A stretch of 62,979 bases of DNA, taken from IMG/VR virus record IMGVR_UViG_3300023216_001509; one strand, 5' to 3'. Shown here one piece after another: positions 48,835 through 49,476 of the stretch (its first letter is position 1; each line of letters begins with the position of its first letter). Below the pieces are notes generated by a model, which had not been told where the DNA came from, made no database searches, and saw nothing but the letters and a program-made list of their open reading frames with translations. A program made the position numbers and the translations under genes. The stretch comes from a virus.

Positions 48835-49476
48835 ATGGTAACAAGAAGAACATTCATCAACTTGAGTGCGGCTGCTCTGGTGGGGATGGGGTTGGTGCCG
48901 GCGAGTGATGTCGATGGTGGCCTGTTCAAGTGGCGCCCGTGTCCATATTGTGATGTCGAAACTGTTCCTGCTTTGGCTGCTCGGCAGCGGGCGTATTGGG
49001 CTCGGCGGCATTTGAGGTATCACATGGCTGGGCGGGATTTGTACGACATGACCCGGGAGGTCTGGGACAAGGAATTTCGATTGGCATTTGACGCTTGGTC
49101 GGAGGTAACACCACTGACGTTTGAGCAAGTGGGTGTGACTGGTGAATTTGATATCATCATTGCCGTGGGCAACAACCGCCGGCAAGGGTTCGGTCGGGTT
49201 GGTAGGACACTGGCTTGGGCGCAGTTACCCCCATCCAAGAATTATGATGGGGTGCTGCTAACGAAATTTGATTTGGCAGAAAATTGGATACTCCCAGGGA
49301 CGGATGAGTTTGGTGTTGTCCTTCGGTCGGTGGCGTGTCACGAGATTGGCCACTTGCTGGGGTTGAACCATTCACGCGACCCAGAGGCGTTGATGTTTCC
49401 GTATATCAACAACGCACTGGCGCCCAGGGCAGACGACATCCAGAGGATTCAGCAACTTTATGGGGGGCCGATATAG
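48835..49476 (+). CDS. Matrixin-type (M10) zinc metalloprotease with twin-arginine signal peptide
   Basis: [19 protein letters not shown] (Tat motif). [25 protein letters not shown] (HExxHxxGxxH plus Met-turn). [11 protein letters not shown]. Confidence 0.85.
   Translation: [213 protein letters not shown]

What the first reader, a model, noticed from the sequence alone, without database searches (positions are those of the whole stretch)
48835..49476. Secreted matrixin (MMP-like) protease in the position where a lysis enzyme is expected
The ORF has a twin-arginine signal ([15 protein letters not shown]). Its catalytic segment, [25 protein letters not shown]...[11 protein letters not shown], matches the matrix-metalloproteinase zinc site, Met-turn and C-terminal helix almost residue for residue. 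It follows a signal-anchored small membrane protein (48502..48771) and precedes the terminase genes. I recognised no glycosidase, amidase or other classical endolysin anywhere in the genome. This enzyme may therefore be the lysin (a peptidoglycan cross-link or envelope-protein peptidase exported by Tat), or a depolymerase for a proteinaceous surface layer.
Basis: partly seen in the sequence, partly recalled or inferred. Interest (0 to 1): 0.65.

Follow-up and report, generated by a model that had tools for sequence, protein, structure and literature searches.

The report
Phage-encoded Tat-exported mini matrix metalloprotease
A complete uncultured phage genome encodes a small, exported enzyme that closely resembles animal matrix metalloproteases, safety-catch cysteine included. 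No ordinary cell-wall-cutting lysis enzyme can be detected in the genome, so this protease may help the phage break out of its host, but that is not proven.

Summary
ORF 48835..49476 (+) encodes a 213-aa protein with a full-length Peptidase_M10 (matrixin) domain (Pfam E 2.4e-32), an MMP catalytic fold (Foldseek TM ~0.8, 34-39% identity to MMP-13/2/12) and a conserved twin-arginine motif. Cys39 aligns with the MMP cysteine switch (family consensus P-(F/R)-C-G-V-x-D). The four structural-zinc ligands of MMPs are replaced.

The window is a complete circular phage genome. Pfam and PHROG scans of all ORFs found no endolysin or spanin, and only one weak holin-like match (ORF 138-365, E 0.025).

The protein belongs to a large family from uncultured, mostly marine phages. 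It is absent from 50,697 deposited phage genomes, and cellular genome representatives reach at most ~43% identity. In about 40% of non-redundant viral loci the gene lies within 1.5 kb of small membrane proteins; one of these families matches holin PHROGs. In other lineages it sits among nucleotide- and sugar-metabolism genes.

A sister tier of viral matrixins (PG_binding_1 prodomain, no signal peptide) sits in lysis-cassette-like clusters.

Best reading, at about 0.4: a Tat-exported, switch-latent envelope protease that assists lysis. A peptidoglycan-cleaving sole endolysin is unlikely.

The parts
48835..49476 (+). Gene for the 213-aa minimal matrixin: Tat signal, cysteine-switch peptide and M10 catalytic domain
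   Evidence: ORF; Pfam PF00413 E 2.4e-32 over the full profile; AF2 model with pLDDT above 90 for residues ~51-213; Foldseek hits to MMP-13/2/12/3 with E ~1e-14 to 1e-15 and target-normalised TM ~0.8
48835..48903 (+). Predicted Tat signal peptide (aa 1-23): T3-R4-R5-T6-F7-I8, an uncharged h-region L10-A23, and a possible V-P-A cleavage site
   Evidence: R4 and R5 are at least 90% conserved while the rest of the N-terminus is variable; 99 of 107 full-length family members carry RRx[FLIVM][LIVFMC]. No TatP or SignalP tool was available, so cleavage and export are inferred.
48934..48960 (+). Cysteine-switch-like peptide R34-P-C36-P-Y-C39-D-V-E42; Cys39 is invariant in the family
   Evidence: C39 is invariant; 96 of 107 members have a Cys 14-21 residues before the catalytic-domain Trp, with consensus (R/K)P(F/R)CGVxD; BLASTP aligns P-Y-C39-D-V with P-R-C-G-V of human proMMP-1 and P0002's C-G-V is identical; pro-MMP chains 1slm, 1su3 and 9csx align through this region
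48997..49464 (+). Matrixin catalytic domain (aa 55-210): five beta-strands and three helices
   Evidence: Pfam match over residues 55-210; DSSP on the model gives E59-64, H74-89, E95-98, E107-112, E127-129, E141-146, H163-174, H199-209
49339..49374 (+). Catalytic zinc site H169-E170-I-G-H173-L-L-G-L-N-H179-S180
   Evidence: These columns are invariant in the family alignment; 104 of 107 members have HExxHxxGxxHS
49387..49404 (+). Met-turn A185-L-M187-F-P-Y190
   Evidence: L186 and M187 are invariant; 107 of 107 members have the Met-turn pattern
48502..48771 (+). Gene D: an 89-aa signal-anchored membrane protein with a conserved periplasmic motif MMMxMFxxMAPxEMxRI. It is the syntenic partner of the protease; its role (holin-like, spanin-like, or tethered regulator or substrate) is unknown.
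   Evidence: TM segment at residues 1-19; homologues lie directly upstream of the protease gene in L001, L013, L003 and L004 (tblastn E 4e-30 to 8e-8); no Pfam or PHROG family
48791..48819 (+). 9-bp-stem hairpin in the D-M10 spacer, ending 3 nt before the Shine-Dalgarno sequence; possible regulatory element
   Evidence: RNA fold -18.6 kcal/mol, z = -2.5 against shuffles; a hairpin at the same position in L001 and L013, and an intrinsic-terminator-like hairpin plus T-run in L003 and L004
138..365 (+). Small protein with two hydrophobic segments, a possible holin (weak evidence). About 13.6 kb downstream of the protease on the circular map, in the same late transcriptional orientation.
   Evidence: PHROG holin phrog_2359 at only E 0.025. 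I judged it by eye to resemble family A, whose L100 member hits holin phrog_9987 at E 7e-5, but tblastn did not link it to family A.
412..636 (+). Family B small membrane protein (charged N-terminus, C-terminal TM). Its homologues lie immediately upstream of the protease gene in other phage lineages.
   Evidence: tblastn to L010 9451-9693 with E 2e-5, and family B members adjacent to the protease in L010, L102, L107, L108 and L112

Best explanation
The gene encodes a minimal pro-matrixin that the phage makes late in infection and sends to the host periplasm through the Tat pathway. Shown: it has the matrixin catalytic domain (zinc site, Met-turn, fold), a conserved twin-arginine motif and a conserved cysteine at the position of the MMP cysteine switch. 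It lacks the roughly 80-residue prodomain and the structural-zinc site. It is co-oriented with the late head and packaging genes. It is paired with a small signal-anchored membrane protein (D), and in many related phages it is flanked by further small membrane proteins. Inferred mechanism: the protein folds and binds zinc in the cytoplasm, where the Cys39 thiolate caps the catalytic zinc and keeps the enzyme latent. Tat then exports the folded holoenzyme. In the periplasm the switch opens, either by oxidation (this protein has a C36-x-x-C39 pair) or by removal of the short propeptide. The active protease then cuts protein components of the cell envelope, such as outer-membrane-to-wall tethers, wall-associated proteins or surface-layer proteins. 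This weakens the envelope and assists host lysis and virion release, working with holin-like membrane proteins. It is more likely a lysis-assisting or envelope-protein-degrading enzyme than a peptidoglycan cross-link peptidase.
For: Matrixin identity: Pfam E 2.4e-32; PDB sequence hits to MMP-13 at E 3e-21; fold TM ~0.8. Export: Tat-like motif in 99 of 107 members. Latency device: invariant Cys39 aligned to the proMMP-1 switch Cys. Late context: the + strand block runs F (head-module protein), D, M10, G145, TerS, TerL, portal. Elimination argument: in this complete genome the only small membrane or exported proteins are D, M10, the doubtful N-terminus of G145, and the pair at 138-636, and no lysin or spanin family is detectable. 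Linkage to membrane proteins: 13 of 36 non-redundant viral loci have an A, B, C or D family member within 1.5 kb, and about 9 more have a spanin-like/holin-like/C cluster at a fixed 5.4-6.2 kb; small TM ORFs make up 22% of the +-2 neighbours against 12% background (odds ratio 2.1, p 0.0035); family A hits holin PHROGs at E 7e-5. Sister tier: viral PG_binding_1+M10 proteins without a signal peptide sit between 2-TM and 1-TM proteins or right after baseplate genes, with no other PG hydrolase nearby. Precedents: the Listeria prophage metzincin Mtz and its membrane-tethered partner Tim sensitise cells to lysis (PMC8235301), and an endopeptidase fused to a Tat signal can bypass its holin (PMC9527704).
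Against: There are no activity, expression or export data. In several lineages of large phages the gene lies next to SSB, dUTPase, RNR, glycosyltransferase and DUF1501 genes rather than next to packaging or lysis genes. Only about half of the loci have a small TM neighbour, and those loci are not phylogenetically independent. D, B and C have no recognised holin or spanin family, and no o-spanin candidate was found. About 35 ORFs remain unannotated, so a novel lysin could be hidden among them. The host is unknown, so the envelope substrate cannot be named.
Confidence: 0.4

Rival explanations
1. It is an exported auxiliary protease unrelated to lysis. The phage sends it to the periplasm or beyond to remodel the infected cell. 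It might destroy receptor or uptake proteins (superinfection exclusion, or stopping progeny from sticking to debris), or it might digest periplasmic or extracellular proteins to supply amino acids, like an auxiliary metabolic gene.
For: In at least five lineages of large phages the gene sits among nucleotide-metabolism, sugar-nucleotide, glycosyltransferase and DUF1501 genes. In L002-L004 a Tat-signal DUF1501 gene lies directly upstream of the D-C-M10 cluster. L102 and L176 pair it with a secreted Trypsin_2 protease. L010 carries two paralogues, which is unusual for a lysis gene. Matrixins are general endopeptidases acting on proteins (established knowledge).
Against: In the window lineage the gene is in the late structural and packaging block, not among early genes. 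Small membrane proteins, including a holin-like family, are enriched around it. The genome has no integrase or lysogeny module that would suggest a host-benefit moron.
Confidence: 0.3
2. It is the phage's true and only endolysin: a peptidoglycan-directed endopeptidase that cleaves stem-peptide cross-links after Tat export.
For: No other lysin is detectable in a complete genome. The sister tier of viral matrixins carries a PG_binding_1 domain, which matches the wall-binding part of an endolysin PHROG (E 2.5e-6), and lies in lysis-cassette-like clusters without another hydrolase. Tat can deliver a wall endopeptidase in an engineered system (PMC9527704).
Against: No M10 member is known to cleave D-amino-acid or isopeptide bonds of peptidoglycan; the known PG endopeptidases belong to M15, M23, M74, NlpC/P60 and CHAP (established knowledge). 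PG_binding_1 is also simply the normal MMP prodomain fold, so its presence in the sister tier is not specific evidence. The window protein itself has no wall-binding domain. Constitutive export of an active murein hydrolase would kill the host early unless it were tightly latent.
Confidence: 0.1
3. The N-terminus is an ordinary Sec signal or an uncleaved membrane anchor rather than a Tat signal. The protease would then be membrane-tethered, and the twin arginines would be incidental.
For: No dedicated predictor was available. The signal is short (about 23 residues) compared with typical Tat signals. The h-region is reasonably hydrophobic (mean Kyte-Doolittle 1.47).
Against: RR followed by a hydrophobic pair is kept in 99 of 107 members, while the surrounding residues vary freely. 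The consensus xRRxFL matches the canonical (S/T)RRxFLK motif. Neighbouring phage DUF1501 genes carry the same kind of signal. Export of a pre-folded zinc enzyme fits Tat logic.
Confidence: 0.1

Closest known systems
Vertebrate matrix metalloproteinases (MEROPS M10A), especially the catalytic domains of MMP-13, MMP-12, MMP-2, MMP-3 and MMP-1 and their cysteine-switch propeptides
   Same: 34-39% identity over the whole catalytic domain. Same HExGHxLGLxHS zinc site, Met-turn, C-terminal helix and five-strand/three-helix fold. A Cys at the switch position with the family consensus P(F/R)CGVxD.
   Different: It has no ~80-residue three-helix prodomain, no hemopexin domain and no Sec signal, and carries a twin-arginine signal instead. 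All four structural-zinc ligands are replaced (MMP-13 H172/D174/H187/H200 become R116/G118/W128/K144). It is encoded by a bacteriophage.
Karilysin of Tannerella forsythia, a bacterial MMP-like M10 protease (PDB 2xs3, 2xs4, 4in9)
   Same: A prokaryote-associated, secreted matrixin with only a very short propeptide. PDB sequence match E 3.8e-17 over residues 51-212.
   Different: From my own knowledge, karilysin uses an aspartate rather than a cysteine for latency, keeps the structural zinc, has a C-terminal domain and uses Sec/T9SS export. Here there is a cysteine switch, no structural-zinc ligands, a Tat motif and no extra domain.
Listeria prophage-derived Mtz (secreted metzincin) and Tim (TIMP-like lipoprotein) pair (PMC8235301)
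   Same: A phage-associated secreted metzincin encoded next to a small membrane-tethered partner. It is an accessory gene near the holin-lysin genes in prophages, and its expression sensitises cells to phage lysis and increases virion release.
   Different: Mtz has a Sec signal and a different Met-turn (AIMLD), and the paper does not describe it as a matrixin. The partner is a lipoprotein, whereas D is a signal-anchored protein with no lipobox. The host is Gram-positive. No homology between D and Tim was tested.
Insect-virus MMPs (granulovirus, ascovirus, entomopoxvirus, iridovirus, nudivirus)
   Same: Virus-encoded matrixin folds; they are the best matches in the viral structure library (E 1e-12 to 1e-8). 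From my own knowledge they help break down host barriers (basement membrane) for virus spread and release, a comparable logic.
   Different: Only 21-28% identical, much larger (220-790 aa), eukaryotic secretion signals, eukaryotic hosts and extracellular-matrix substrates.
SAR endolysins such as P1 Lyz and R21 (functional analogy only)
   Same: A lytic enzyme exported before lysis by a host translocon and held inactive until triggered. From my own knowledge, in P1 Lyz a cysteine cages the active site.
   Different: SAR endolysins are lysozymes exported by Sec and tethered by a releasable TM helix. Here the enzyme is a metalloprotease with a Tat motif and a zinc-capping cysteine. No natural Tat-exported phage lysin was found in the searchable literature.
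Viral PG_binding_1 + Peptidase_M10 proteins from uncultured phages (the sister tier found here, for example P0132, P0133, P0144 and the L172 locus)
   Same: 37-47% identical catalytic domain with the same LAW(A/M)Q replacement of the structural-zinc histidine and a PRCG(V/C)xD switch. They are viral and are often flanked by small TM proteins.
   Different: They have a full PG_binding_1 prodomain, no signal peptide, and a Pro-rich linker followed by a conserved C-terminal motif. That layout suggests holin-dependent rather than Tat-dependent release.

Membership tests
Matrixin (MEROPS M10A / Pfam PF00413) | Profile match above the curated threshold over the whole catalytic domain | tested here: met
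   PF00413 at 112.5 bits against a cut-off of 24, E 2.4e-32, profile positions 2-159 of 159
Matrixin (MEROPS M10A / Pfam PF00413) | Extended zinc-binding motif HExxHxxGxxH followed by Ser (the matrixin signature) | tested here: met
   H169-E-I-G-H173-L-L-G-L-N-H179-S180; invariant in the alignment; present in 104 of 107 members
Matrixin (MEROPS M10A / Pfam PF00413) | Met-turn (ALMxP) below the zinc site | tested here: met
   A185-L-M187-F-P-Y; present in 107 of 107 members
Matrixin (MEROPS M10A / Pfam PF00413) | Catalytic-domain fold: five-stranded sheet and three helices | tested here: met
   AF2 pLDDT above 90 with matching DSSP elements; Foldseek target-normalised TM ~0.8 to MMP-13/2/12/3
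Matrixin (MEROPS M10A / Pfam PF00413) | Cysteine switch PRCGxPD upstream of the catalytic domain | tested here: met
   Invariant Cys39, 16 residues before W55; family consensus (R/K)P(F/R)CGVxD. The window protein reads P-Y-C-D-V, so it is degenerate around the Cys. It aligns to the proMMP-1 switch. Zinc coordination itself is not testable here.
Matrixin (MEROPS M10A / Pfam PF00413) | Structural zinc site (His, Asp, His, His in the S-loop) | tested here: not met
   MMP-13 H172/D174/H187/H200 align with R116/G118/W128/K144; W128 is nearly invariant in the family
Matrixin (MEROPS M10A / Pfam PF00413) | An ~80-residue prodomain (PG_binding_1-like three-helix bundle) | tested here: not met
   Only 31 residues separate the predicted signal from the catalytic domain. 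There is no PG_binding_1 hit, whereas sister-tier proteins do have one. Not all M10A members require it.
Matrixin (MEROPS M10A / Pfam PF00413) | Zinc-dependent endopeptidase activity | not testable with these tools
   Needs a biochemical assay
Tat (twin-arginine) exported protein | Consensus (S/T)RRxFLK motif at the n/h-region boundary | tested here: met
   T3-R-R-T-F-I-N9; R4 and R5 at least 90% conserved; 99 of 107 members carry RRx[FLIVM][LIVFMC]
Tat (twin-arginine) exported protein | Uncharged, moderately hydrophobic h-region and an AxA-type cleavage site | tested here: inconclusive
   The uncharged stretch has a family median of 18 residues, mean hydrophobicity is 1.47, and V21-P-A23 is a possible cleavage site. 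No TatP or SignalP was available.
Tat (twin-arginine) exported protein | Tat-dependent translocation of the folded protein | not testable with these tools
   Needs RR-to-KK mutants and tat-null hosts
Phage endolysin | A catalytic domain of a family known to cleave peptidoglycan | tested here: not met
   Only Peptidase_M10 is present, with no PHROG lysis family. M10 is not a known muralytic family (established knowledge).
Phage endolysin | Genetic linkage to a holin or other lysis genes | tested here: inconclusive
   D is adjacent but has no family. A, B, C or D members lie within 1.5 kb in 13 of 36 loci. Small-TM neighbours are enriched (odds ratio 2.1, p 0.0035). Only family A matches holin PHROGs (E 7e-5). 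In other lineages the context is unrelated.
Phage endolysin | Required for, or sufficient with a holin for, host lysis | not testable with these tools
   Needs genetics and expression experiments
Mtz-Tim-type lysis-sensitising metzincin pair | A secreted metzincin encoded beside a membrane-tethered partner that it cleaves | tested here: inconclusive
   The D-M10 pairing is conserved in window, L001, L013, L003 and L004. D has no lipobox, and neither a TIMP-like fold nor cleavage of D was tested.

The most novel reading that the evidence does not exclude
Viral matrixins form an unrecognised class of phage lysis enzymes with two delivery modes. One is a Tat-exported form kept latent by a cysteine switch (this gene). 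The other is a signal-less form with a PG_binding_1 prodomain, released by holins. In phages that lack any glycosidase or amidase, possibly phages of Planctomycetota/Verrucomicrobiota-type hosts with protein-rich envelopes, the protease would be the principal envelope-degrading enzyme. The cysteine switch would then act as the lysis timer, playing the role that the SAR domain plays for SAR endolysins.
Probability: 0.15. Interest if true: 0.85.

Novelty: new variant of a known kind. Interest (0 to 1): 0.6.

Why it matters
If the protease takes part in lysis, it would add a protease-based, Tat-delivered route to the known phage lysis strategies, which rest on holin-dependent or Sec/SAR-delivered muramidases, amidases and PG endopeptidases. 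It would also show that a bacteriophage has repurposed the animal-style cysteine-switch zymogen mechanism. Whatever its function, the work uncovers a large radiation of matrixin genes in uncultured, mostly marine phages: at least 43 viral loci of this type and at least 131 of a sister type. None of the 50,697 deposited phage genomes has a detectable homologue of the window protein, and I found no report of phage M10 proteases in the searchable literature. Their catalytic domains are 35-39% identical to human MMPs. That bears on the debate about horizontal transfer of MMP genes between animals and microbes, where phages have not been considered as carriers. A compact enzyme of about 160 residues that needs only one zinc could also be a convenient model or tool.

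Tried and rejected
1. Hidden lysin in the flanking ORFs. F (47923-48471) was suspected, but its homologues in cultured phages lie between the major capsid protein and the head-tail adaptor, so it belongs to the head module. G145 (49477-49914) looked like a SAR endolysin because of its Gly-rich hydrophobic N-terminus. It has only 4 homologues, that N-terminus is not conserved, and in an unrelated phage it again precedes the terminase and portal genes, so it is packaging-associated.

2. o-spanin search. No credible small lipoprotein ORF was found anywhere in the window.

3. TatA-like or known-family identity of D, B and C. No Pfam or PHROG family at E <= 0.1 apart from noise.

4. Close relatives among deposited phages. 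Megablast of 23 kb found nothing. tblastn of the protease, of C and of A also found nothing. TerL is only 38% identical to Croceibacter phage P2559Y, so no host could be assigned.

5. Host assignment. There are no tRNAs. The DUF1501 and cytochrome-c/PSCyt-like neighbours in related phages hint at PVC-group hosts but are absent from the window itself.

6. Sigma-70 promoter and terminator scan around the gene. The counts were no higher than in shuffled sequence.

7. Literature. No paper on phage M10/matrixin proteases or on natural Tat-exported endolysins was found.

8. My first greedy gene call mis-stranded about 19 genes. It was replaced by a codon-usage model that agrees with the deposited gene calls.

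9. A disulfide (CxxC) redox switch as a general family feature was rejected. Only 14 members have CxxC and 20 have CxC, while 63 have a single Cys.
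Full report
**1. The observation**

Pfam assigns residues 55-210 to Peptidase_M10 (matrixin) with E 2.4e-32, covering profile positions 2-159 of 159. Other metzincin families score only over the short HExxH stretch. No PHROG family matches.

The best sequence matches among solved structures are vertebrate MMP-13, MMP-12, MMP-10, MMP-9, MMP-3, MMP-2 and MMP-1 catalytic domains (E 3e-21 to 1e-17). The bacterial matrixin karilysin scores E 3.8e-17.

An AlphaFold2 model built on a 34-sequence alignment has pLDDT above 90 for residues ~51-213 and the matrixin topology of five strands and three helices. 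Foldseek against the PDB returns MMP-13, MMP-2, MMP-12 and MMP-3 with E ~1e-14 to 1e-15, target-normalised TM ~0.8 and 34-39% identity. Pro-MMP-3 (1slm) aligns over 191 columns.

**2.

- **Cysteine switch.** In the family alignment Cys39 is invariant and lies 16 residues before the invariant Trp55 that opens the catalytic domain. Of 107 full-length members, 96 have a Cys 14-21 residues before that Trp. The consensus around it is (R/K)-P-(F/R)-C-G-V-x-D, which is the MMP cysteine switch PRCGVPD. In the closest relative, P0002, the C-G-V is identical.
- **No structural zinc.** The four structural-zinc ligands of MMPs (MMP-13 H172, D174, H187, H200) align with R116, G118, W128 and K144, and W128 is nearly invariant in the family. 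The family therefore probably binds only the catalytic zinc.
- **No prodomain.** The ~80-residue prodomain is absent. Only a signal peptide and about 30 residues precede the catalytic domain.
- **Extra cysteine.** This protein has a C36-x-x-C39 pair. That is not general: 63 members have one Cys, 20 have CxC and 14 have CxxC.

**3. The signal**

T3-R-R-T-F-I-N9 fits the Tat consensus (S/T)RRxFLK. R4 and R5 are at least 90% conserved while the rest of the N-terminal 30 residues vary, and 99 of 107 members carry RRx[FLIVM][LIVFMC]. An uncharged stretch follows (family median 18 residues), along with a possible V-P-A cleavage site. No dedicated predictor was available, so export and cleavage remain inferred.

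**4. The genome**

The first and last 42 bases of the window are identical, which is the signature of a circular assembly, so the window is a complete genome of about 62.9 kb. It has no tRNAs and no close relative among 50,697 deposited phages. TerL is 38% identical to that of Croceibacter phage P2559Y.

My first greedy gene call mis-stranded some genes. A codon-usage model gave 80 genes that agree with the deposited calls on identical contigs. The scans used concatenated proteins, with hits mapped back to genes. The genes identified were:

- **Virion and packaging:** prohead-protease-like DUF2213, major capsid, head decoration, neck and tail-terminator proteins, tail T, tape measure, TerS, TerL, portal and a MuF-like protein.
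- **Replication and DNA metabolism:** SbcCD-like, PDDEXK, RecA-like, gp32-like, clamp loader, PolA, UDG/exonuclease, sliding clamp, DnaB, primase, SNF2 helicase and a nuclease.
- **DNA modification:** FolE, QueC, QueD, a TGT-like enzyme and a C5 DNA methylase.
- **Regulators and others:** a CsrA-like protein, a sigma factor, DUF932, two GT2 glycosyltransferases, a methyltransferase and a metallophosphatase.

No lysozyme, amidase, transglycosylase, CHAP, M15, M23 or NlpC domain was found, and no lysis-category PHROG at E <= 1e-3. There is no integrase either.

Apart from the tape measure and two enzymes, the only small membrane or exported proteins are D (48502-48771), the protease, the doubtful N-terminus of G145, and the pair at 138-365 and 412-636. 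No o-spanin-like lipoprotein exists.

**5. The immediate neighbours**

- **F (47923-48471)** matches phrog_22694. Its homologues in Streptomyces phage Keanu and Microcystis phage Mae-JY04 lie between the major capsid and head-tail adaptor genes, so it is a head-module protein.
- **G145 (49477-49914)** has only four homologues. Its hydrophobic N-terminus is not conserved, and in an unrelated 63.8-kb phage it again sits just before the terminase and portal genes, so it is packaging-associated.

D-M10 is therefore a two-gene insertion between head and packaging genes, in the late orientation. A 9-bp-stem hairpin (48791-48819, z = -2.5) lies between D and the protease gene. Relatives have a hairpin at the same place, and in L003 and L004 it is a terminator-like hairpin followed by a T-run.

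**6. The family and where it lives**

The word-indexed search found 139 relatives of 200-225 aa, all with the M10 domain only, mostly from marine metagenomes. The exhaustive search shows that the close family collapses to one representative at 50% clustering (62% identity, E 5e-82). There is then a gap to a tier at 37-47% identity. The counts are 28 representatives at E <= 1e-30 and 660 at E <= 1e-10.

Among species-representative cellular genomes the best hits are partial and only 38-43% identical. tblastn against deposited phages found no match.

In the viral structure library the best matches are insect-virus MMPs. A few phage entries annotated as M10 are remote, at 20% identity or less. 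No paper on phage matrixins was found.

**7. Genomic contexts**

| Loci | Arrangement |
|---|---|
| Window lineage (identical contigs; L001, 75% identity; L013, 58%, on a 60.8-kb contig) | F-D-M10-(x)-TerS-TerL conserved |
| L003, L004 | DUF1501 (Tat signal)-D-C-M10 |
| L010 (166-kb contig) | B-C-M10, plus a second signal-less paralogue with PRCGCPD |
| L102 | A-B-M10, then a small secreted Cys-rich protein and a secreted Trypsin_2 |
| L002 | M10, a secreted protein, a TM+coiled-coil protein, C, a TM protein |
| L096, L098, L100 and relatives | M10 among small ORFs beside SSB, GT1, dUTPase and RNR, with a cluster of a 117-aa TM+coiled-coil protein, A and C at a fixed 5.4-6.2 kb downstream |

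Family A (L100 member) matches holin PHROGs at E 7e-5. The window's ORF 138-365 matches a holin PHROG only at E 0.025. The 117-aa protein matches Rz-like spanins only at E 0.026. B, C and D have no family.

Of 36 non-redundant viral loci, 13 have an A, B, C or D member within 1.5 kb of the protease gene. In a family-independent count, small TM ORFs are 26 of 117 (22%) of the +-2 neighbours against 91 of 752 (12%) elsewhere in the same loci (odds ratio 2.1, Fisher p 0.0035), and 14 of 30 loci have at least one. These ORF calls are crude and the loci are related to one another, so the p-value is only indicative.

No PG-hydrolase Pfam domain appears in any of the +-10-kb neighbourhoods that had precomputed annotation.

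**8. The sister tier**

The next-closest proteins (about 270-400 aa) have no signal peptide. They have a PG_binding_1 prodomain, a PRCG(V/C)xD switch, the same LAW(A/M)Q replacement of the structural-zinc histidine, a Pro-rich linker and a conserved C-terminal motif.

In L172, L174, L175, L177 and L183 the gene lies between a 2-TM and a 1-TM protein upstream and two or three TM or secreted proteins downstream. In L152 it directly follows a baseplate wedge gene and precedes TM proteins. The only lysis-category PHROG hit in these clusters is the matrixin's own PG-binding domain against an endolysin family (E 2.5e-6). No neighbour is a recognisable PG hydrolase.

This layout looks like a lysis cassette, but PG_binding_1 is also simply the normal MMP prodomain fold, so it is suggestive and not decisive. 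Some neighbours carry cytochrome-c (CxxCH) domains. Together with the DUF1501 genes they hint at Planctomycetota/Verrucomicrobiota-type hosts. The window itself has neither.

**9. Interpretation**

What is shown: a bona fide matrixin catalytic domain, a conserved Tat-type motif and a conserved switch cysteine; a late-oriented position; a conserved membrane-protein partner; a statistical but incomplete association with small membrane proteins, including a holin-like family; and no detectable conventional lysin in a complete genome.

What is inferred: cytoplasmic folding and zinc loading with the switch closed, Tat export, periplasmic activation, and attack on protein components of the envelope to assist lysis.

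Two precedents make this plausible. The Listeria prophage Mtz-Tim pair is a secreted metzincin with a membrane-tethered partner that sensitises cells to phage lysis (PMC8235301). An endopeptidase given a Tat signal can bypass its holin (PMC9527704).

I put this reading at about 0.4. An exported auxiliary protease unrelated to lysis (receptor destruction, superinfection exclusion or nutrient scavenging) is nearly as likely, at about 0.3, because of the metabolic and early-looking contexts in the large phages. A peptidoglycan-cleaving sole endolysin is unlikely, at about 0.1, since no M10 enzyme is known to cut D-amino-acid or isopeptide bonds.

**10. Novelty and score**

The protein is a member of the matrixin family by every sequence and fold criterion except the structural-zinc site and the long prodomain. 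Its architecture (Tat signal, bare cysteine-switch peptide, single-zinc catalytic domain) and its carrier (tailed phages) make it a new variant of a known kind.

The wider finding, that matrixins are common in uncultured phages and often sit among small membrane proteins, appears to be unreported. It makes a concrete, testable proposal about protease-based lysis. Interest 0.6.

Noticed in passing
window 61687-62957 (continuing into 1-90 across the circular junction): A dense ~1.3-kb non-coding array of short repeats. TTCCCAGGT occurs 15 times in the window against 0.74 expected, with 12 of the 15 in this array region. There are 12-nt TTCCAGGTCACA / TCCAGGTGATTC units, two 84-bp copies (61743-61908), a (CCGAT)x8 run and TCCCTGCGTG-type units. 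It is probably an iteron-like origin, a pac region or a regulatory binding array.
   Followed up: partly
window 1-42 and 62938-62979: An exact 42-bp terminal overlap, meaning the window is a circularly assembled, complete phage genome of about 62.9 kb.
   Followed up: yes
window 56476-59484 (+): The 1002-aa MuF-like minor head protein has a long C-terminal extension containing an HExxH motif (HETIHGLEY). It may be a MuF-fused metallopeptidase or toxin-like domain. Only the Phage_Mu_F domain was detected by Pfam.
   Followed up: no
window 30059-33958 (-): A 7-deazaguanine DNA-modification gene set: a TGT/DpdA-like gene (30059-31207), FolE (31212-32186), QueC (32171-32965) and QueD/PTPS (33581-33958). 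A C5 cytosine methylase lies at 34030-34827.
   Followed up: partly
window 12024-15041 (+): A 1005-aa protein extremely rich in Cys, Thr and Pro, with repeated GACC...G.C motifs. It lies after the tail genes and has no Pfam or PHROG match, so it may be an unusual receptor-binding or fibre protein. Two GT2 glycosyltransferases and a methyltransferase follow (15066-18377).
   Followed up: no
window 36746-36949 (-) and 44829-45377 (-): The phage encodes a CsrA-like post-transcriptional regulator and its own sigma-70-family factor (region 2 hit), so late promoters may not look like sigma-70 consensus sites.
   Followed up: no
window 48791-48819; L003 ~8775-8800; L004 ~3660-3690: A hairpin directly upstream of the protease start codon recurs in every lineage. 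In L003 and L004 it is a textbook intrinsic terminator (GAACTCCCA...TGGGAGTTC plus a T-run) between gene C and the protease gene, which suggests regulated read-through.
   Followed up: partly
L172, L174, L175, L177, L183 (about 9100-13100 in each); L152 9911-13431: Signal-less PG_binding_1+M10 matrixins are embedded between 2-TM and 1-TM proteins and followed by a conserved 341-374-aa protein with a QGRGDCVSWS motif (possibly a cysteine-peptidase-like active site; no Pfam hit). At least 131 IMG/VR contigs carry this matrixin type.
   Followed up: partly
L002 836-2068, L003 6917-8155, L004 1799-3037; L010 3921-6382; L096, L098 and L100 near 19600: Phage-borne DUF1501 genes with their own twin-arginine signals (RRDFMK). 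In L002-L004 they lie directly upstream of the protease cluster. Neighbours of the sister-tier matrixins in L147, L148 and L162 carry cytochrome-c CxxCH (PSCyt-like) domains. Together these hint at Planctomycetota/Verrucomicrobiota-type hosts.
   Followed up: partly
L010 8233-8826 and 10001-10651: One 166-kb phage-like Tara scaffold carries two matrixin paralogues about 1.2 kb apart. One has no signal peptide and a canonical PRCGCPD switch; the other is the Tat type. A 2OG-Fe oxygenase gene lies between them.
   Followed up: partly
window 49477-49914; L106 10001-10411: A tiny orphan family (4 proteins) that sits immediately upstream of the terminase genes in two otherwise unrelated phages. It has invariant E, D, C, E and N residues and a conserved RKRLPVNQRTPILSPIP tail, and may be a packaging accessory factor.
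   Followed up: partly
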